Source: a virus
Lineage: Duplodnaviria > Heunggongvirae > Uroviricota > Caudoviricetes
Length of the DNA: 60,346 bases
Virus record (IMG/VR): IMGVR_UViG_3300045988_141393
Direction: 5' to 3' (one strand)
The position numbers were made by a program, and so were the translations under genes. Position 1 is the first letter of the stretch; every line of letters begins with the position of its first letter. Below, one piece after another: positions 26,955 through 37,038 of the stretch. The notes under the pieces are model-generated. The model worked only from the letters and a program-made list of their open reading frames with translations, was not told the DNA's origin and did no database searches.

Positions 26955-28315
26955 GTCTGGTTAATTGGGAGGAGCACCGCGCCCGCTTTATAGCGTTGCG
27001 TGAAGAAAAAGGGATCACTGTAAAGGAATACTGTGAGGAGCATGGCCTTAGCTTCAATACAGCCAGAAAGCATCTCAATATGAAAAAAAATGAGGTGCGG
27101 TCGCAGGTAAAGACAACAAAAAAAAGCACCAAATCACCTGAAAAAAAACGGGCGGGAAGAGCAACAAAAAAGCTGGAAGAGGGTGCAGAAAAAACAAAAT
27201 TTACAGAAATTGACAATTCGCAGGGCGCAGGTTCTTTCCGAAGTATGCCGAGAAAGAAAACTTCGGATCATGAAAATAATGCAAATAATAACAATGAGAT
27301 AAAAGAATCTGTCAGGAGATCATTGCGCGAAAAAATGGCGAAAATGATCCCCGAAGAAGATAAAAGCGCCCCAAAAATTGAGGGATCTTCAGCAATGATC
27401 CCTGGCGGTGCTGTGCAACGTGCCACATTGCCCACTACGAATGTGGCTCGCGACATGATGAAGAACGGCGCAGAAGAACACCTGCGGTTAGCAATTCAAA
27501 TGGCGCAAGAGCGCGCACTTCAGTATCAAAGCATTGTTGATCAGGAGGCCGAACGTCTACAGGCGGAAATAGACGCCTTGGGCGATAAAGAGCCAGAAGG
27601 AATGCACCCTGGGCAGCGCCTTCTCGGTCTAATCAGTGACGCGGCCTACTACATGAATGATTTTATCAGTAGGTTGGCAGCTATATATCAGTCCGAACAA
27701 AAGCTGCGACAGGGGGATGAAAAGCTTCGTCAGAGCGCTCGCCAGCAAGCATTCAAAGAGGCTGAGGCCAGAGAAAAACTCGAATTAGCACGCCTACAGG
27801 CCGAACAGCGTGGCAAAGAGATTGAATATCGCATTGGCGCTGACGCACGCGCTGCCAGAGTTATCGCCGCCGCTATACGTATGCGTGAGCGCGAGGAACT
27901 GGATGATATCGGTGTTGCTGAATACATCGAGCGCCAGGGGGTCAGCGTCCCGGCTATCCTCGCGGCGCGCGCGGCGAAAGCTATCACTCTTCTCGAACCA
28001 CCTGTTTCTGACGTCAATGATGTTGATGATGAACAGCTGGACAAAGAGGCAAGGGAGTTTGCAACGCTTCAGGCTAACCATCCGCAATGGCTGGCAGAGC
28101 GCCGGGCGGATGTGGCAACCATTGTTGAAGAATTGGGGTGCGGAGATTACGACCGCAATGGCGAGCGTAAAGCTGGAGAATTCGAGGCCAACGACGAAGA
28201 GCTGGATATTGACCCTTCGGCAACGGCTGAAATTTACGGTGATTATGATGCATCTGATGCAGGGTATGACGCCGGAGATGATGATATCGCGATAGAACCG
28301 CCGGAGGATGATTAA
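26951..28315 (+). CDS. Terminase small subunit-like protein (PacA-like)
   Basis: 454 aa; N-terminal HTH-like region, very acidic C-terminus, immediately upstream of ATPase-bearing terminase; contains GATC cluster. Confidence 0.4.
   Translation: MSLVNWEEHRARFIALREEKGITVKEYCEEHGLSFNTARKHLNMKKNEVRSQVKTTKKSTKSPEKKRAGRATKKLEEGAEKTKFTEIDNSQGAGSFRSMPRKKTSDHENNANNNNEIKESVRRSLREKMAKMIPEEDKSAPKIEGSSAMIPGGAVQRATLPTTNVARDMMKNGAEEHLRLAIQMAQERALQYQSIVDQEAERLQAEIDALGDKEPEGMHPGQRLLGLISDAAYYMNDFISRLAAIYQSEQKLRQGDEKLRQSARQQAFKEAEAREKLELARLQAEQRGKEIEYRIGADARAARVIAAAIRMREREELDDIGVAEYIERQGVSVPAILAARAAKAITLLEPPVSDVNDVDDEQLDKEAREFATLQANHPQWLAERRADVATIVEELGCGDYDRNGERKAGEFEANDEELDIDPSATAEIYGDYDASDAGYDAGDDDIAIEPPEDD
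27266..27544. repeat. GATC-rich cluster, candidate pac site
   Basis: Six GATC in about 280 bp (27266, 27318, 27346, 27384, 27397, 27539), several as TGATCC/TGATCA, inside the PacA-like gene. Confidence 0.35.
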
Positions 28316-29823
28316 TGGCTGGCGGGCGCAAGATTAAATGCGTCACCAGCGATCCACGCTGGCGCGATATGGTAATCAAATACCGCTACAACTTTACCCA
28401 GGCTGTTGTCGATATTTTTGGGATGTTCCCCTCCCACCAGCAGCAGCAGATCATTCAGTCAGTGCAGGAAACGGGGAGTAGGACGACCGTCACGTCCGGA
28501 CACGGAACGGGGAAGTCGTCCCTTACCGCGATGTTGCTGTTGATTTTTATGATCCTGTTCCCCGATGCCCGTGTCATCATTGTTGCTAACAAGATAGGCC
28601 AGGTAAAAACAGGCGTATTCAAATACGTTAAACAGTATTGGGCGAATGCAGTTAAGCGTCATGGGTGGTTGCAGACCTATTTTGTCCTCTCTGACACCAT
28701 GTTTTATGAGCGCTCCCGTAAGGGGATTTGGGAAGTTCTCTGCAAAGGTTATCGACTCGGCAACGAAGAAGCGCTGGCGGGGGAACACGCGGCACATTTG
28801 CTTCTAATTCTGGACGAAGCATCTGGTATATCTGATAAGGCGATCGGCGTAATGACCGGTGCTCTTACTGAAGAAGATAACCGGATGTTGATGCTATCCC
28901 AGCCAACAAGGCCAAGTGGTTATTTCTACGATTCGCACCATTCTCAAGCAAAAACCCCAGACAACCCGAAAGGGATCTGGACAGCAATTGTTCTTAACTC
29001 GGAAGAATCACCGTTCGTCACACCACAATTCATCAAGCAGAAGCTTCTGGAATATGGCGGGCGCGATTCTATTGAGTACATGGTCAAGGTGCTTGGTCAG
29101 TTCCCACGAGAAATTAACGGCTATTTGCTTGGTCGTGATGAATGCGATCGCGCTGCTCGCCGCAAGGTGTTGTTGGAGAAAAACTGGGGATGGGTGGCAA
29201 CGGCTGACGTTGGTAATGGGCGAGATAAGTCGGTCCTCAACATCTGCAAAGTATCTGGTCACAGGGATAAGCGGCGCGTTGTTAACTTTAAGGTAATGGA
29301 GATGCCTGGCACTATGGACCCATTGGCCTTTGCTGACTTCATATATAACGAATGTACGCCGGAAAAATACCCGAATATAACAATCGCGGTTGATGCTGAT
29401 GGTTTTGGTTCTGATACGTGTGCGCAGTTGGTGCGTCGTGGTGCGAACCCGGTACGTATTCGGTGGGGAAAACCCATGTTTGCGAACAAAGACAGGGAGC
29501 GATTTGTTAATCAGCGTGCCTACGCAAATATTATGGCGCGAGATGCCATAAAGTCAGGGCGTATGCGGATAGACAGTGACCCTAAAACGGCAGAGCAAGC
29601 GTCAAAAATCCCCTTTTTACTGAATGAAGAAGGGAAAATGGCGATGATGCGCAAAGAGCACATGCGGCAAAAGCTAAACATCAAATCGCCTGACCGATGG
29701 GATACCTACTGCTTCACTATGCTGGTGGACTATGTGCCTGCTAATGAAGATATTGGTGCCGAAATGGCAACTTTCCGAGATCAGGTTCTGGCGGATATCG
29801 AAATGCCGGATCTGGATATATAA
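28315..29823 (+). CDS. Terminase large subunit (PacB-like ATPase-nuclease)
   Basis: 502 aa; Walker A SGHGTGKSS, Walker B HLLLILDEASG, C-terminal acidic AVDADG nuclease-like motif. Confidence 0.55.
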   Translation: MAGGRKIKCVTSDPRWRDMVIKYRYNFTQAVVDIFGMFPSHQQQQIIQSVQETGSRTTVTSGHGTGKSSLTAMLLLIFMILFPDARVIIVANKIGQVKTGVFKYVKQYWANAVKRHGWLQTYFVLSDTMFYERSRKGIWEVLCKGYRLGNEEALAGEHAAHLLLILDEASGISDKAIGVMTGALTEEDNRMLMLSQPTRPSGYFYDSHHSQAKTPDNPKGIWTAIVLNSEESPFVTPQFIKQKLLEYGGRDSIEYMVKVLGQFPREINGYLLGRDECDRAARRKVLLEKNWGWVATADVGNGRDKSVLNICKVSGHRDKRRVVNFKVMEMPGTMDPLAFADFIYNECTPEKYPNITIAVDADGFGSDTCAQLVRRGANPVRIRWGKPMFANKDRERFVNQRAYANIMARDAIKSGRMRIDSDPKTAEQASKIPFLLNEEGKMAMMRKEHMRQKLNIKSPDRWDTYCFTMLVDYVPANEDIGAEMATFRDQVLADIEMPDLDI

Positions 29824-31097: not shown

Positions 31098-31131
31098 ATA
31101 ACTTTAAATAATTGGCATTATTTAAAGTTAA
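31098..31131. other. lox-like site (13-bp inverted repeats flanking 8-bp spacer)
   Basis: ATAACTTTAAATA-ATTGGCAT-TATTTAAAGTTAA; arms match 12/13; shares ATAACTT...ATA with loxP arms; 150 bp upstream of cre-like gene. Confidence 0.55.
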
Positions 31132-32729: not shown

Positions 32730-33202
32730 AAACTTATTACCCATCTCTGAATTGTTACCCGTCTTCCTATCCAGAATTGTCCGGGAAGCTGTTAGCTCTA
32801 TTAGCTAAAGCACCTACGGAATGGTTTAAGCCAGTCGTTATCAATCCACACTTCCTGGATTACGGATCTGTTCGCACTCGTAACGAACTCAAAAACCTAC
32901 TGGCGCATGGATTCATTCGACACCGTGCCGGGAAAGGCTATCAGTTAGCGATTGCGCCAGAAGAGGCCGTGCGGCTATTCGCATATCGTGACAGCCAGAC
33001 AAAAGCTCGGGTAATAGCTCAAATACTTCATAACGGCAGCACCTATGCCCGCCAGTTTGGCGGCGACACGTCGCAGTTCTTGCGGGCGGTGCGATCGCTG
33101 GAGGAGCAAGGAGTTATTGAAAGTTCCTGTCTTCCTGTTCCTACCGTTCCACATATCAAACGTCGGGTTTACACCTTCACGCAGAGAGCTAAAAAACAAT
33201 GA
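32726..33202 (+). CDS. Hypothetical protein
   Basis: 158 aa, overlapping stop/start with neighbours. Confidence 0.3.
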   Translation: MKTYYPSLNCYPSSYPELSGKLLALLAKAPTEWFKPVVINPHFLDYGSVRTRNELKNLLAHGFIRHRAGKGYQLAIAPEEAVRLFAYRDSQTKARVIAQILHNGSTYARQFGGDTSQFLRAVRSLEEQGVIESSCLPVPTVPHIKRRVYTFTQRAKKQ

Positions 33203-33693
33203 TTTACGTAAAAGTGAAACGCCTACATCCGGCAGCAAAACTTCCAGCTTATGCCACCTCCGGATCGGCGGCGATGGATTTTGAGGCTGTTGAAATAAAA
33301 CCATGCGTCGATAGCAATGGTGCAATTTCCTCAAGCTGGTGGGTGTATACCGGACTGGCTATGGAGATCCCGCCCGGCTGGTGTCTGAAACTCTATCCGC
33401 GATCAGGATTGGGCTGCAAAAAACATACTCGCCTGGCTAACTGCGTAGGAATTATCGACTCCGATTATCGCGGCGAAATCATGGCAAAACTGATTACTGA
33501 TCCAGGCGGGGAAGGCGTTTGTCTCAAGCCTGGAATGGCTGTCATGCAAGGAATTTTTGAGCGTGTTGAACAAGTCTCACTAGTCGAGGTTGAGGAACTC
33601 AACGAAACGGAGCGTGGTGCTGGTGGCTTTGGTAGCACATCGGAAGGCCGCGTTGAAATCAAGCGTACACCGCTTCAGTACGCAAAGTTTTAA
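33199..33693 (+). CDS. dut: dUTPase
   Basis: 164 aa; motifs AMDF, RSGL, IIDSDYRGE, RGAGGFGSTS. Confidence 0.65.
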   Translation: MIYVKVKRLHPAAKLPAYATSGSAAMDFEAVEIKPCVDSNGAISSSWWVYTGLAMEIPPGWCLKLYPRSGLGCKKHTRLANCVGIIDSDYRGEIMAKLITDPGGEGVCLKPGMAVMQGIFERVEQVSLVEVEELNETERGAGGFGSTSEGRVEIKRTPLQYAKF

Positions 33694-33707
33694 GTAGAGG
33701 AAGGATT

Positions 33708-34370
33708 ATGGCCAGCACTTTTCAGGTGTTCCCCAAATACAAATGCCACAGCATCATTCGGGCATCGAAAATCAAAGATATTGTTATTGTCGGCAAAGCT
33801 TATGCGCCAATTTTTGGCAGCATCGAAGTCGTGGAGCCAAAAGGAATGACGCTTCGTGTTGATGGTGTGTTCTTGGAAAAGTTCCGACCGCAAATAGGAG
33901 GATATCTCGTCACTGCTGAAAATGGTTATCTGGTCTATGTGCCAGAGAAAGCATTTGAAAAATGCTATAGCCGGGTTAACGACGCCTCCGAAAATGGGGT
34001 ATCGCTCAGCATTGAAGGTCACAATGGGGTGACATTCATTACAGCCAGGGACGTAACTATTTCTGCTGGCGGTATCGCTACTCTACAAGAAGAAATCGAC
34101 CTTGAAGCAGCCGACTTTTCTGACGCGCTGATGTGGATGAAGGATGGCAAGAAAGTTGCTCGACGCGGGTGGAACGGCGAAGACCAATTCTGCTGGCTGG
34201 TTCCTGAAGGACAGTACCCGGCACGAATGGAAGCCATTAAGGGATATTTCCCCGGCGACCTCGTTCCGTATGGTGCTTATTTCGCCTTAAAAAATGCACA
34301 AGGTGTAGTTGTTCCGTGGGTGCCTTCAGTTGGCGACCTGCTGGCCTGTGACTGGTTTGTTGTGGAGTGA
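33708..34370 (+). CDS. Protein with C-terminal DUF2829-like domain (Tad2-type candidate)
   Basis: 220 aa; ALMWMKDGKKVARRGWNG ... LLACDWFVVE. Confidence 0.45.
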   Translation: MASTFQVFPKYKCHSIIRASKIKDIVIVGKAYAPIFGSIEVVEPKGMTLRVDGVFLEKFRPQIGGYLVTAENGYLVYVPEKAFEKCYSRVNDASENGVSLSIEGHNGVTFITARDVTISAGGIATLQEEIDLEAADFSDALMWMKDGKKVARRGWNGEDQFCWLVPEGQYPARMEAIKGYFPGDLVPYGAYFALKNAQGVVVPWVPSVGDLLACDWFVVE

Positions 34371-34376
34371 TTTGAC

Positions 34377-35144
34377 ATGGAAAGCACTAAAACAATTCAA
34401 TACCGCTTGCGTAATGGCCTGCTGGTGGCTGTTAACGCCGACATGTCACTGCCGTTTGACACGATTGAACGCACTATCATGACGTATCTCGGCTTTAATG
34501 AAGAGCTGAATGAAGAGCATGGCGTAGCTATATGGAGTGATGCAGACAGCGGCGTTCGTCGTTACATCACCGCCAGGGGCAAAGACTACTCTCTGGAAGA
34601 ACTGTTTGCCCTTGCGCAGTCTTTCGAATGTGTAGCATTAGACCTGTTTAATGATCCTGCTATAGCGCAACGACTTATACGCGAGCTTGGGCTATCCGTT
34701 ACACCAATTATCTTTAAAAATGGCAGCCTGACTGGCACATGGCGCGTAGAACGCATCTCAAACTACCTTCCATATAACCGACAGTTAAATGGAGTAATCT
34801 CCGGCGTTAATCAGCCCGTAGCGTGTGAAAATGTAAACCTGGTTGTCGCTGTTTTGGCAACCGCATGTCGTGTTATCGGTTTGGCTAAACAGGCATTTAT
34901 TCATTTCCCAAATGGTGCAGAAGGTAGCGCAGAGATTATCGCGTGTGATTTCGAATTTACCTGGATGCTACGCGAATATCTGGACCAAACAGTATTCCGT
35001 GCCGAAGAACTGGATATGTATATCACGTCAACGATTCCAGACGATGTGCGAGCTGAAGCAATCGCTACAGCCAGGGCGAAATGCCGTGCGGCGATTGCAG
35101 AACAGGCCAAAGAAGAAGTTAAGGAAGTGGCAGATGGCGACTAA
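34377..35144 (+). CDS. Hypothetical protein
   Basis: 255 aa ORF. Confidence 0.35.
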   Translation: MESTKTIQYRLRNGLLVAVNADMSLPFDTIERTIMTYLGFNEELNEEHGVAIWSDADSGVRRYITARGKDYSLEELFALAQSFECVALDLFNDPAIAQRLIRELGLSVTPIIFKNGSLTGTWRVERISNYLPYNRQLNGVISGVNQPVACENVNLVVAVLATACRVIGLAKQAFIHFPNGAEGSAEIIACDFEFTWMLREYLDQTVFRAEELDMYITSTIPDDVRAEAIATARAKCRAAIAEQAKEEVKEVADGD

Positions 35145-36228
35145 GAGCAATATTTATAAAGATCCGCGCTGGCTGTCGCTGGTGGAGAAATATAAAGACA
35201 ATTGGGTACTGGCAGCAAAAGAATTGTTTGATATTGATTTAAGCCACCAGCAACAACAAATTGTTGAAGCTATACAGCCCAACAATGCAAAAGCTACTGT
35301 CACCACTCCGTATGGGATCGGACGACCGCAAGTGCTTGCTGTTATTAGTACCCTTTATACGATTATGTATCCTGATTCCCGGACAGTAATTGTTTATCCA
35401 AAATCAAATGCTTGCAAAAGAGGAATTGTTGCATATGTGTGGCAATGTTGGGAGGCATTACTGAAAAAACAACCTTTTATCATTGAGTATTTTAAGGTCG
35501 GTGATAGCGGTCTGATGTTCAATGAATTTTGGGGAATGTGCTTTTGTAACTACCGCCTTAACTATGAAGATAGCATTGCAGGTCACTACGCCGACCATCT
35601 TTTATTCATTATTGTGGATTCCGCACATATCAGCGATCGGGCATACAGCATTGTGTGGGCAAGCATGACTAGTGGTGATTCACGCATATTGCTCACTTCA
35701 ATTCCGTCACCAGAGGAAATAGGCTTTTTTTATGATTCACATCATGGACGTGCTTTAGCTGAAGATAATACGAGTGGTGTATATAAAGCCATTAAGCTGA
35801 GTGCGGAGGATTCACCATTTATTACCCAAGAATATCTTGATCATTTTGCCGAAAGGTATGGCGGGCGAAATAGTGATGACTATCGTCGTATGATTCTTGG
35901 TGAGTTCCCTGGTATTAGGGAGGCTGTTCTTGAATCAGATATGCCGAAGACAATGCGCTTTTCGATGCCTGATGGTAGTGAATGGACAATGCCATTACGA
36001 GTGATAGCCCGGCATCATGCGCAGCACCACGCCAAAAAACATGGCGTCACGACATTAGAATGGTTGAAATCGCACACTATTCCACTCTTCACTGCAGATC
36101 ACAATGCTATCGTTGAGTGGGCAAAAACAATTCCGTGGGAGCATGTCGCTGAATATGCTCACATGCTAAAACCGCCGAAAGACAGGCACGAAATTAGCTG
36201 GCTGACAGCCGAAAAAATCATTGAATGA
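35134..36228 (+). CDS. Terminase-large-subunit paralogue with degenerate ATPase motifs
   Basis: 364 aa from ATG 35134; shares DPRW, SHQQQQI, FYDSHH, SPF-T, YGGR, LG-FP blocks with 28315..29823 but Walker A is TPYGIGRPQ and Walker B is LLFIIVDSAH; no nuclease-like C-terminus. Confidence 0.45.
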   Translation: MATKSNIYKDPRWLSLVEKYKDNWVLAAKELFDIDLSHQQQQIVEAIQPNNAKATVTTPYGIGRPQVLAVISTLYTIMYPDSRTVIVYPKSNACKRGIVAYVWQCWEALLKKQPFIIEYFKVGDSGLMFNEFWGMCFCNYRLNYEDSIAGHYADHLLFIIVDSAHISDRAYSIVWASMTSGDSRILLTSIPSPEEIGFFYDSHHGRALAEDNTSGVYKAIKLSAEDSPFITQEYLDHFAERYGGRNSDDYRRMILGEFPGIREAVLESDMPKTMRFSMPDGSEWTMPLRVIARHHAQHHAKKHGVTTLEWLKSHTIPLFTADHNAIVEWAKTIPWEHVAEYAHMLKPPKDRHEISWLTAEKIIE

Positions 36229-36235
36229 TATCAAC

Positions 36236-36266
36236 AAAAAGCCCGCCTGGTCTGGCGGGCTTCTTT
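36236..36266. terminator. Bidirectional terminator between convergent genes
   Basis: AAGCCCGCC-tggtc-TGGCGGGCTT followed by T-rich run. Confidence 0.5.
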
Positions 36267-36273
36267 ATGCGCC

Positions 36274-36663
36274 TTAAATCACAGGTCTATAATCAAACTC
36301 CCCACTTCGGGCATCATTGATGACATGAGTGATCACACCAAAAACAGCATTACTGCCCGTGTATCCATCGTCATCTACTGGTAACGCCTCTTTCTTCCCG
36401 GTGCTTAAATCCTCCAGGTGCTGGCGCGGATACTTCCTGTATCTCTTTATGCGATATTCACCCTCCATAGCGCATATAAGCAGTGAACCATCAACCGGAG
36501 TAAGTGAGGAATCAACCACCAGCAAAGCACCTTGCAATATTCCCTCACGGTGATGGCTGTCTGCCGCCCGCATGAAGTAGGTCGCGGAAGGATGTCTGAT
36601 TAGTTGCTGATCAAGAGAAATGCGGCTCTCTGCATAATCCGCCGCAGGAGAAGGGAAGCCCAT
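36274..36663 (-). CDS. humD: UmuD'-like protein (HumD-like, pre-truncated UmuD homologue)
   Basis: 129 aa starting MGFPSPAADY...; aligns to UmuD from residue about 24 onward; LexA box directly upstream. Confidence 0.7.
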   Translation of the reverse strand: MGFPSPAADYAESRISLDQQLIRHPSATYFMRAADSHHREGILQGALLVVDSSLTPVDGSLLICAMEGEYRIKRYRKYPRQHLEDLSTGKKEALPVDDDGYTGSNAVFGVITHVINDARSGEFDYRPVI

Positions 36664-36681
36664 AGCGTTTTACCTCAATGA

Positions 36682-36701
36682 TACTGTTTATTCATACAGT
36701 A
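36682..36701. promoter_or_regulatory. LexA (SOS) box
   Basis: TACTGTTTATTCATACAGTA = CTGT-N8-ACAG, 19 bp upstream of humD-like start. Confidence 0.6.
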
Positions 36702-36786
36702 TACATTGAAAAGGCATAGTTTGTGAAAGCGGGGTTTGTAGGCGCGCCACGCTGGGGGCTAATCACATTTCTCCCCCATCTTGCCG

Positions 36787-37038
36787 TTATTTTTTTGGTG
36801 CATCCTCGTTCTGATACACCGGATCGCTCCCTTTTGGCAACTGGAGGCTTAACTGCCGGTAGTGCCGTAGCCGTTCCATGAAATAGGCGCGCAGGTTTTC
36901 CGGTTGCTCACGGGCCACCTGCTCTGCAATCACAGGTATATTCAGCCGTTCTTTGTAAGCAACGCCGCTGGCGGCAAGGTCTACGTTCACCTTGTCTCGC
37001 TCTTCCTGGCTTTTAGCTGCTATATTTCGATCTGACAC
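36787..37038 (-). CDS. Hypothetical small protein
   Basis: 83 aa ORF upstream of humD-like gene. Confidence 0.35.

What the first reader, a model, noticed from the sequence alone, without database searches (positions are those of the whole stretch)
35134..36228. Terminase large-subunit paralogue with degenerate Walker A/B motifs beside dUTPase
The protein from 35134 is clearly homologous to the N-terminal ATPase half of the PacB-like terminase at 28315..29823 (shared DPRW, SHQQQQI, FYDSHH, SPF-T, YGGR, LG-FP blocks). Its Walker A is TPYGIGRPQ versus SGHGTGKSS, and its Walker B is LLFIIVDSAH versus LLLILDEASG. It also lacks the acidic nuclease-like C-terminus. It sits in the cre-proximal accessory block next to dUTPase and a DUF2829-like gene rather than with packaging genes. 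A catalytically dead terminase copy could be a decoy for terminase-sensing immunity (for example Avs-type STAND sensors), a packaging regulator, or a decayed duplicate.
Basis: partly seen in the sequence, partly recalled or inferred. Interest (0 to 1): 0.65.

Follow-up and report, generated by a model that had tools for sequence, protein, structure and literature searches.

The report
Catalytically dead terminase paralogue, accessory gene
A phage-plasmid related to phage D6 carries a second, well-conserved copy of the ATPase half of its DNA-packaging enzyme that has lost its catalytic residues and gained a small domain of unknown function, so it probably works by binding a partner, possibly in phage-host conflict.

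Summary
ORF 35134-36228 (364 aa) is 37% identical over 258 residues (E 9e-56) to the ATPase half of PacB (28315-29823).

- **Motif loss:** The Walker A Lys and Ser are Arg and Pro. The Walker B Asp-Glu is Val-Asp.
- **C-terminus:** The nuclease half is replaced by a ~95-aa domain with no Pfam family or solved structural match. That domain occurs mostly as a stand-alone small protein in early regions of temperate phages.
- **Not a pseudogene:** It matches PHROG 5902 (function unknown). 163 of 790 matching plasmid records hold a full-length copy, and dN/dS is 0.06-0.31.
- **Age:** The paralogues form one clade, sister to all the gammaproteobacterial PacB proteins compared, so this is not a recent copy of the resident pacB.
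- **Consistent loss:** Every family member examined lacks the catalytic Lys and an intact Asp-Glu pair, each with different substitutions. This includes a Klebsiella protein with the two domains in reverse order and two ATPase-domain-only variants.
- **Context:** The gene follows isaA with an 11-nt overlap, inside a mobile Tad2-like/isaA module, and outside the packaging operon.

It is most likely a non-catalytic terminase mimic that acts by binding. Counter-defence is my preferred role, but that is inference. I found no publication describing it.

The parts
35134..36228 (+). CDS of the PacB-like pseudo-ATPase paralogue (364 aa plus stop); PHROG 5902
   Evidence: ORF and translation. BLASTP to PacB gives E 9e-56. 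phrog_5902 matches full length at E 2.5e-163.
35134..35919 (+). N-terminal domain (residues 1-262): terminase large-subunit ATPase fold, homologous to PacB residues 1-268
   Evidence: In the AF2 model, residues 11-190 have 10-residue block-mean pLDDT of about 56-93, mostly above 70. The top Foldseek PDB matches are terminase ATPase domains (2o0h, 4znl, 5oeb, 8dgc_E).
35305..35331 (+). Degenerate Walker A (T58-Q66, TPYGIGRPQ). Arg64 replaces the P-loop Lys and Pro65 replaces Ser/Thr.
   Evidence: Alignment A4: six true PacB/TerL proteins all have G-x-GTGK[ST]. Seven of the nine family members examined are in A4; none of the nine has the Lys.
35599..35628 (+). Degenerate Walker B (L156-H165, LLFIIVDSAH). 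Val161 is at the Asp position and Asp162 at the catalytic Glu position.
   Evidence: Alignment A4: true PacB proteins all have [IL][ILV]DEA. Paralogues have VD, VN, MD, AE, TE, IN, PK, PN or DN.
35935..36225 (+). C-terminal ~95-aa domain (residues 268-364). It belongs to an unnamed family of mostly stand-alone small proteins with consensus MPDGSxWxVPVxxIAxxRAxxYA...EDTxPLF...DWAxNNMxWxDV.
35121..35127 (+). Shine-Dalgarno sequence AAGGAAG, 6 nt upstream of the ATG. It lies inside the 3' end of isaA, which suggests translational coupling.
   Evidence: Read directly from the sequence. The isaA stop is at 35144.
34377..35144 (+). isaA-like gene (255 aa, PHROG 2326, function unknown). It is the upstream partner in every isaA-linked locus examined.
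   Evidence: The same gene pair with overlapping ends is seen in L002, L088, L089 and L090.
33708..34370 (+). Tad2-like (DUF2829) gene, the first gene of the mobile module Tad2-like/isaA/paralogue
   Evidence: Pfam PF11195 at 2.7e-22. Solved Tad2 structures 9eib and 8v3e match at E about 1e-19.
36236..36268 (.). Bidirectional intrinsic terminator, AAAAAGCCCGCC-TGGTCT-GGCGGGCTTCTTTAT, between the paralogue stop and the convergent humD gene
28315..29823 (+). Resident functional PacB terminase, used as comparator (intact GHGTGKS and LILDEA motifs plus the C-terminal half)

Best explanation
**What is shown.** The gene encodes a pseudoenzyme. It has a terminase large-subunit (PacB-type) ATPase-fold domain that has lost the P-loop Lys/Ser and the Walker B Asp-Glu. 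It has no nuclease domain. It is fused to a ~95-aa domain that otherwise occurs as a stand-alone protein in early regions of temperate phages. It is an optional cargo gene of P1/D6-type phage-plasmids and is kept under purifying selection. It is apparently translationally coupled to isaA, and it is transcribed with early or plasmid-state genes rather than with the late packaging genes.

**What is inferred.** It cannot plausibly hydrolyse ATP or cut DNA, so it probably acts by binding a partner that normally contacts the terminase ATPase domain. My preferred role is counter-defence: made before the true terminase, it occupies or titrates a host factor that recognises the terminase ATPase fold, such as an Avs-type STAND sensor. 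The fast-evolving N-domain would be the arms-race interface. The conserved small domain, perhaps together with IsaA, would provide a second activity or prevent productive sensor assembly.

**Confidence split.** I put about 0.8 on 'non-catalytic, selected, binding-type accessory protein' and about 0.3 on the counter-defence role specifically.
For: **Homology and fold.**

**Catalytic residues lost throughout the family.** The substitutions differ between members: at the Lys position R, Q, H, E, T or C; at the Asp-Glu pair VD, VN, MD, AE, TE, IN, PK, PN or DN.

**Purifying selection.**
- Window vs L090: dN/dS 0.07.
- L002 vs L089: 0.20.
- Window vs L088: 0.31 for the N-domain and 0.06 for the C-domain.

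**Prevalence.** 163 full-length copies among 790 matching PLSDB plasmid records. 36 of 103 complete E. coli genomes carrying D6-type isaA also hold the window-type paralogue with at least 80% of the isaA-paralogue query covered.

**Age.** The paralogues form one clade, sister to PacB of P1, D6-type, JK004, Aeromonas and Photobacterium elements.

**The two domains are linked.** The same two domains occur fused in the opposite order in Klebsiella protein P0169.

**Not needed for packaging.** P1 and D6 lack the gene. In P1, isaA is non-essential while pacA and pacB are essential (PMC10695390).

**Early or non-late expression context.**
- Window: a gap-free gene string cre-orf-orf-dut-Tad2-like-isaA-paralogue, then a terminator.
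- P1-type locus L002: a C1 operator with one mismatch upstream of ssb, then ssb-isaA-paralogue, then a terminator.

**Anti-defence neighbourhood.** A Tad2-like gene lies next to isaA. Tad2 is reported in 93% of D6-like and 56% of P1-like phage-plasmids (preprint 10.1101/2025.09.12.675607). In P1-type elements the dar anti-restriction operon is adjacent.

**The ATPase domain can be an Avs interface.** AlphaFold-Multimer predicted that the ATPase domain contacts KpAvs2, and the full terminase co-purified with KpAvs2 (PMC11564622).
Against: There is no direct functional evidence.

- PADLOC, Pfam and NCBIfam give no match, and I found no known anti-defence homologue.
- An Avs sensor that binds a mimic might be expected to fire rather than be blocked. 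SeAvs3 also contacts the terminase nuclease domain and active sites (my recollection of Gao et al. 2022, not tested here), and this protein lacks both.
- The stand-alone small domain sits among recombination and replication genes (RecT, exonuclease, Gam, RdgC, SSB, DnaB). The paralogue itself sits near ssb, ref, dut and humD. A role in DNA metabolism fits that context equally well.
- The first P1 C1-operator search found no match in the window, so the timing of expression here is only inferred from gene order.
- Loss of ATP binding is inferred from sequence, not measured. The upstream Q-motif (SHQQQQ) is retained.
Confidence: 0.35

Rival explanations
1. Inter-phage competition or superinfection exclusion. 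The dead ATPase domain acts as a dominant-negative subunit. It binds the small terminase (PacA-type), the portal, or terminase oligomers of incoming or co-resident P1-like phages and blocks their packaging, while sparing the resident PacA/PacB.
For: - The N-terminal segment shared with PacB (DPRW..LV.KY, Q-motif) is well kept.
- It is an accessory gene with presence/absence polymorphism in a known variable region of P1-like phage-plasmids (PMC6906374 and PMC9603915).
- The N-domain diversifies into subtypes 41-52% identical.
- In D6-type elements it lies downstream of cre, so it may be expressed in the plasmid state.
Against: - In P1-type elements it lies in the C1-operator-controlled ssb operon. 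It would then be repressed in lysogens, when exclusion is needed.
- It is only 30-38% identical to any PacB compared, so co-assembly is uncertain.
- PADLOC gives no match.
Confidence: 0.2
2. Early DNA-metabolism or DNA-end factor. The ATPase-dead terminase fold and the small domain bind DNA or a recombination/repair protein (for example RecBCD, SSB or Ref) to protect or process phage DNA early in infection.
For: - Neighbours of the paralogue are ssb (P1-type), ref (Citrobacter variant), dut, humD and hot.
- The stand-alone small domain lies among RecT, exonuclease, Gam, RdgC, SSB, DnaB and methylase genes in 80 viral contigs.
- Some small-domain proteins are fused to a DUF1351 coiled-coil or to a Lar-like zinc ribbon.
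Against: - No neighbour of the small domain is conserved; the best is present in 16 of 80 loci.
- The small domain has no conserved catalytic-type residues; its invariant positions are mostly hydrophobic.
- Isolated terminase ATPase domains bind DNA weakly (general knowledge).
Confidence: 0.15
3. Regulator of the phage's own packaging. The protein binds PacA or pac DNA and delays or tunes pac cleavage.
For: It is homologous to the PacB N-terminal half, including the extreme N-terminus. It is likely expressed earlier than the late genes.
Against: - It is absent from P1 and D6 (no copy in the listed P7 matches either) and from about two-thirds to four-fifths of relatives, which package normally.
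- It occupies three different variable loci rather than the pac operon.
Confidence: 0.08
4. Decaying duplicate or pseudogene with no function.
For: Catalytic residues are lost. Truncated copies exist: P0007 (266 aa), P0017 (cut by a Tn3-family transposase), and a Shigella copy covering 91% of the query.
Against: - dN/dS is 0.06-0.31.
- Intact full-length ORFs are present in 163 plasmid records.
- The clade is old, and paralogues keep 41-52% identity in the ATPase domain without frameshifts.
- The domain fusion is found in two different orders.
Confidence: 0.03

Closest known systems
PacB, terminase large subunit of P1/D6-type phages (resident copy at 28315-29823)
   Same: The N-terminal ATPase-fold domain is homologous (37% identity, E 9e-56). 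The N-terminal helices, Q-motif, S-x-P motif III region, FYDSHH and YGGR blocks are shared.
   Different: - No Walker A Lys/Ser, no Walker B Asp-Glu and no C-terminal nuclease half.
- Carries an unrelated ~95-aa C-terminal domain.
- Not next to pacA.
- Optional rather than essential.
- Forms a separate clade outside all the gammaproteobacterial PacB proteins compared.
Structurally characterised terminase ATPase domains (T4 gp17 2o0h, P74-26 4znl, D6E 5oeb, PhiV-1 terminase in the Avs3 complex 8dgc)
   Same: These are the best structural matches of the AF2 model (Foldseek E 7e-7 to 2e-5).
   Different: Sequence identity is only 11-17%. Those proteins are active motors with intact P-loops. The model is only moderate overall (pLDDT 64), with low confidence for residues 190-270.
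PHROG 5902 and PHROG 17928 (function unknown)
   Same: The whole protein matches phrog_5902 end to end. The C-terminal domain matches the C-terminus of phrog_17928, for example Xanthomonas phage CP2 ORF36.
   Different: Neither family has any annotation, so membership gives no functional information. Phrog_17928 proteins carry a long coiled-coil/DUF1351 N-terminus instead of a terminase-like domain.
Ksap2 of phage Bas60 (PMC11564622)
   Different: Ksap2 is a small protein that activates KpAvs2, so it is a trigger and not an inhibitor. No sequence relationship to the present protein was shown or tested.
Neighbouring anti-defence genes of P1/D6 phage-plasmids (Tad2, Dar system)
   Same: They share the accessory neighbourhood. 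A Tad2-like gene is one gene upstream (separated by isaA), and the dar operon is adjacent in P1-type loci.
   Different: There is no homology. The association is positional only.

Membership tests
Functional terminase large subunit (TerL/PacB) | N-terminal ASCE/RecA-like ATPase fold homologous to TerL | tested here: met
   BLASTP to PacB gives E 9e-56. The top Foldseek PDB matches are terminase ATPase domains.
Functional terminase large subunit (TerL/PacB) | Walker A P-loop with Lys followed by Ser/Thr (G-x-GTGK[ST] in PacB-type proteins) | tested here: not met
   The sequence is TPYGIGRPQ, with Arg64-Pro65 at the Lys-Ser positions. All six true PacB/TerL proteins in alignment A4 have GK[ST].
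Functional terminase large subunit (TerL/PacB) | Walker B hhhhDE with catalytic Glu | tested here: not met
   The sequence is FIIVDS, with Val161-Asp162 at the Asp-Glu positions. True PacB proteins all have [IL][ILV]DEA.
Functional terminase large subunit (TerL/PacB) | C-terminal RNase H-like nuclease domain | tested here: not met
   The protein is 364 aa against 502 aa. Nothing aligns with PacB residues 265-502. Residues 268-364 belong to a different small-domain family with a helical fold and no nuclease match.
Functional terminase large subunit (TerL/PacB) | Encoded next to the small terminase in the packaging module, and essential | tested here: not met
   It lies about 5.3 kb from pacA-pacB, after isaA. 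It is absent from P1 and D6 and from most relatives.
PHROG 5902 | Full-length match to the family profile | tested here: met
   E 2.5e-163, residues 4-363 against profile positions 2-358 of 359.
Unnamed 'MPDGS-W' small-domain family (stand-alone ~100-aa phage proteins; C-terminus of PHROG 17928) | Match to the family profile, including the invariant Ala, Trp, Trp and the T-x-P-x-F motif | tested here: met
   phmmer found 194 representatives at E <= 1e-3. Alignment A2 shows the invariant positions. The A2 profile hits the window ORF at E 2e-31. The AF2 model has pLDDT 92.
Known anti-phage defence system proteins (PADLOC-DB v2) | Match to any defence-system profile | tested here: not met
   No family at E <= 0.1 for the paralogue, IsaA or the Tad2-like protein.
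Inhibitor or decoy of terminase-sensing Avs1-3 | Binds the Avs sensor domain and suppresses activation by the true terminase | not testable with these tools
The only support is the TerL fold, the likely early expression context and the anti-defence neighbourhood.

The most novel reading that the evidence does not exclude
The protein is a phage-encoded molecular mimic of the terminase ATPase domain. Made early, it binds terminase-sensing NLR-like immune receptors (Avs1-3 type) without allowing them to assemble. That would shield the real terminase when it appears later. It would be an example of a phage counteracting pattern-recognition immunity with a dead copy of the recognised protein itself; I found no such case described.
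Probability: 0.15. Interest if true: 0.85.

Novelty: new variant of a known kind. Interest (0 to 1): 0.55.

Why it matters
Terminase large subunits are regarded as single-copy, essential packaging enzymes. They are also a main molecular pattern sensed by bacterial Avs immunity.

This locus shows a selected, catalytically dead copy of the terminase ATPase domain that moves as optional cargo among clinically common P1/D6-type phage-plasmids of Escherichia, Salmonella, Shigella, Klebsiella, Citrobacter and Leclercia. That implies the terminase fold has been re-used for a non-packaging job.

If that job is immune evasion or inter-phage interference, it would add a new mechanistic class (mimicry of a sensed core protein). 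It would also give a first functional handle on IsaA and on a widespread unnamed small phage domain. The hypothesis can be tested directly with existing Avs expression strains and P1 genetics.

Tried and rejected
**Ideas tested and rejected**
- P1 IsaB is a remnant of the paralogue cut by IS1. Rejected: no similarity. In P1, isaA homology simply ends where the paralogue would start.
- IsaA is a PacA (small terminase) paralogue, which would make isaA-paralogue a duplicated pac operon. Rejected at the sequence level.
- The stand-alone small domain usually sits next to a terminase-like gene. Rejected: 1 of 80 viral loci, and that one looks like a real terminase. No conserved neighbour was found.

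**Searches with no result**
- Pfam, NCBIfam and PADLOC gave nothing for the paralogue or IsaA.
- PDB sequence searches gave nothing meaningful for the paralogue, the small-domain profile or IsaA.
- The first P1 C1-operator search found no match in the window. A P1 late-promoter-like motif occurred at chance level.
- Literature searches for a dead terminase paralogue or decoy found nothing relevant.

- The afdb50 library was unavailable.
- The search for related loci with the 31-sequence alignment failed. A subset alignment worked.
- The genomic context of the intact permuted protein P0169 could not be fetched.
Full report
**1. Observation**

The window is a D6-like member of the P1 family of phage-plasmids. 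Parts of 33000-37000 are 96% identical to phage D6.

ORF 35134-36228 encodes 364 aa. A Shine-Dalgarno sequence, AAGGAAG, lies 6 nt before the ATG. A clean bidirectional terminator follows the stop codon.

BLASTP against the resident PacB (28315-29823, 502 aa) gives 37% identity over 258 residues and E = 9e-56.

- **Walker A:** Arg64-Pro65 occupy the P-loop Lys-Ser positions.
- **Walker B:** Val161-Asp162 occupy the Asp-Glu positions.

Nothing aligns with PacB residues 265-502.

One positional correction is needed. The immediate upstream gene is an isaA-like gene (34377-35144), which overlaps the paralogue start by 11 nt. The Tad2-like/DUF2829 gene and the dUTPase lie one and two genes further upstream.

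**2. The N-terminal domain**

An AF2 model has an overall pLDDT of 64. Most of residues 11-190 are modelled with moderate to high confidence. Its best PDB matches are the ATPase domains of T4 gp17, P74-26, D6E and Sf6 terminases, and the PhiV-1 terminase from the Avs3 complex.

I aligned six true PacB/TerL proteins with the paralogues. The true proteins came from the window, P1, Cronobacter phage JK004, an Aeromonas plasmid, a Photobacterium plasmid and Xanthomonas phage Rb1.
- All six true enzymes have G-x-GTGK[ST] and [IL][ILV]DEA.
- No paralogue has the Lys or an intact Asp-Glu pair.

The replacements differ from one paralogue to another:
- **Walker A:** GIGRPQ, GIGRAP, GIGQKT, GIGHKS, GIGETS, GTGTTT, GIGCKH, GMGRSR.
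- **Walker B pair:** VD, VN, TE, AE, MD, IN, PK, PN, DN.

This is the pattern expected when constraint on catalysis was lost long ago while the fold stayed under selection.

**3. The C-terminal domain**

Residues about 268-364 are a separate domain, not leftover sequence.

A search of 1.84 billion representative proteins found 194 relatives at E <= 1e-3. Most are stand-alone proteins of 95-125 aa. They share a clear consensus and have invariant Ala, Trp and Trp positions.

In 80 viral contigs, the stand-alone form lies in the early region of temperate phages. Its neighbours include integrase, S24 repressor, RecT, exonuclease, Gam, RdgC, SSB, DnaB and methylase genes. No partner is conserved, and a terminase-like gene is nearby in only one locus.

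The domain is sometimes fused to a DUF1351 coiled-coil protein or to a Lar-like zinc ribbon.

**4. The family and its distribution**

The whole protein matches PHROG 5902 (function unknown) end to end.

Prevalence:
- **PLSDB plasmids:** 790 records match, mostly through pacB. Of these, 163 hold a full-length copy: 34 at >= 95% identity, 10 at 60-80%, and the rest at about 52%.
- **Complete E. coli genomes:** 103 of 5,426 carry D6-type isaA, always on plasmids. Thirty-six of them hold the window-type paralogue with at least 80% of the isaA-paralogue query covered. In the isaA-only records listed, homology stops at window position about 35117.

Phage D6 itself lacks the gene and has pdcA-doc-phd there instead. 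Canonical P1 has IS1 plus the unrelated isaB at the equivalent place.

A 52%-identical copy sits between isaA and hxr in P1-type elements. This is the known variable region isaA-IS1-isaB, also called RD-2 (PMC6906374 and PMC9603915).

Further variants:
- **Klebsiella michiganensis P0169 (366 aa):** the small domain comes first and the dead ATPase domain second. A copy of it is cut by a Tn3-family transposase.
- **Citrobacter freundii plasmid:** a 263-aa ATPase-domain-only version located after ref.
- **Leclercia adecarboxylata plasmid:** a 237-aa ATPase-domain-only version.

**5. Selection and history**

dN/dS values:

| Comparison | Region | dN/dS |
|---|---|---|
| Window vs L090 | whole gene | 0.07 |
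| L002 vs L089 | whole gene | 0.20 |
| Window vs L088 | N-domain | 0.31 |
| Window vs L088 | C-domain | 0.06 |

In the window vs L088 comparison the N-domain is 51% identical with dS of 1.4. The C-domain is 97% identical with dS of 0.2. The gene is therefore mosaic, with a recombination junction near residue 255.

A neighbour-joining tree of the ATPase domains places all paralogues in one clade. That clade is sister to the whole set of gammaproteobacterial PacB proteins. The duplication is old, or the paralogues evolve much faster. Either way this is not a recent copy of the resident pacB. The 'decayed duplicate' reading is rejected.

**6. Context and expression**

In the window, the genes run without gaps from a promoter-like site at 31112. 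The order is cre, two small ORFs, dut, Tad2-like, isaA and the paralogue, followed by the terminator at about 36240-36268.

In the P1-type locus there is a C1 operator with one mismatch just upstream of ssb. Next come ssb, isaA and the paralogue, and then a strong terminator. This suggests early expression on derepression, rather than the late expression of packaging genes.

The Tad2-like gene has a C-terminal domain matching solved Tad2 structures at E about 1e-19. Tad2 is reported in 93% of D6-like and 56% of P1-like phage-plasmids (preprint 10.1101/2025.09.12.675607). In P1-type loci the dar anti-restriction operon is the next transcription unit.

CRISPRi mapping found isaA non-essential and pacA/pacB essential in P1 (PMC10695390).

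**7. Mechanism**

Shown:
- A terminase ATPase fold without catalytic residues or nuclease domain.
- Fusion to a small early-phage domain.
- Optional but selected, and mobile between variable loci.
- Paired with isaA in the isaA-linked loci.

Inferred: it works by binding rather than by catalysis.

The role I consider most likely is counter-defence by mimicry of the terminase ATPase domain. For KpAvs2, AlphaFold-Multimer predicted that domain as the contact with the sensor, and the full terminase co-purified with KpAvs2 (PMC11564622). I give this about 0.3.

The main weakness is that a mimic might trigger the sensor rather than block it.

Rivals:
- Dominant-negative interference with the terminase of competing P1-like phages (about 0.2).
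- An early DNA-metabolism or DNA-end factor (about 0.15).
- A regulator of the phage's own packaging (about 0.08, disfavoured because the gene is optional).
- A pseudogene (about 0.03).

**8. Novelty**

The family already exists as an unannotated PHROG and as 'hypothetical protein', or wrongly as 'terminase large subunit', in public records. One example is a 438-aa mis-started version, P0002.

I found no paper that describes a catalytically dead terminase paralogue, its domain fusion or its link to isaA. I rate it a new variant of a known kind. It is well documented at the sequence level and functionally open.

Noticed in passing
window 33708-34370 (+): This is a two-domain Tad2-like protein. 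The C-terminal residues 132-220 match solved anti-Thoeris Tad2 structures (9eib, 8v3e) at E about 1e-19, and also AcrIIA7. The N-terminal ~130 residues are a separate domain of unknown function (phrog_11049). D6 carries a shorter version (147 aa) and SJ46 a longer one (281 aa).
   Followed up: partly
window 36229-36273, compared with L001, L088 and L090: The phd-doc addiction module found between this locus and humD in D6 and other D6-like plasmids is absent here. D6 has pdcA-doc-phd-orf109 and no paralogue. L088 and L090 have paralogue-doc-phd. In the window the paralogue is followed directly by a terminator and humD.
   Followed up: partly
window 35935-36225; proteins P0011-P0158: The ~95-aa 'MPDGS-W' domain is an unnamed and apparently undescribed family with 194 representative clusters. 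It is mostly found as stand-alone small proteins in early regions of temperate phages. It is occasionally fused to a DUF1351 coiled-coil (for example Xanthomonas phage CP2 ORF36, phrog_17928) or to a Lar-like zinc ribbon (P0055).
   Followed up: partly
L087 6001-8384 (Klebsiella michiganensis contig): A permuted homologue, with the small domain first and the dead ATPase domain second, is truncated by a Tn3-family transposase gene. The intact 366-aa form is P0169. The neighbourhood includes AbiH and RecA-dependent nuclease genes.
   Followed up: partly
L096 4474-5265 (Citrobacter freundii plasmid NZ_CP114569.1): A 263-aa paralogue with the ATPase domain only lies directly after a Ref-family nuclease gene and before mat. 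Its motifs are Walker A GIGCKH and Walker B FICPNA. This is a third genomic location for the family. A similar 237-aa protein, P0173, is on a Leclercia adecarboxylata plasmid.
   Followed up: partly
window 34843-35133 (+): The reading frame stays open upstream of the true start, overlapping isaA in another frame. This produces a mis-started 438-aa public entry named 'Terminase large subunit' (P0002). The Shine-Dalgarno sequence and the starts of homologues support the ATG at 35134.
   Followed up: yes
window about 35117; L003 (P1 21569-24132): Homology with D6-like plasmids that lack the paralogue ends about 17 nt before the paralogue start. In canonical P1, isaA homology likewise ends where the paralogue starts in IS1-free relatives, and IS1 plus the unrelated isaB occupy the place. 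The gene behaves as a discrete insertion/deletion cassette at the 3' end of isaA.
   Followed up: yes
window 35400-35799: G+C content dips to 0.40 inside the paralogue, against 0.48-0.51 in the flanking genes. This agrees with published remarks that variable regions of P1-like phage-plasmids are low in G+C.
   Followed up: no
window vs L088, around residue 255 of the paralogue (window about 35895): There is a mosaic junction. Upstream of it the two alleles are 51% identical with dS of 1.4. Downstream they are 97% identical with dS of 0.2. This indicates recent recombination that swaps N-domain subtypes onto a common C-terminal domain.
   Followed up: partly
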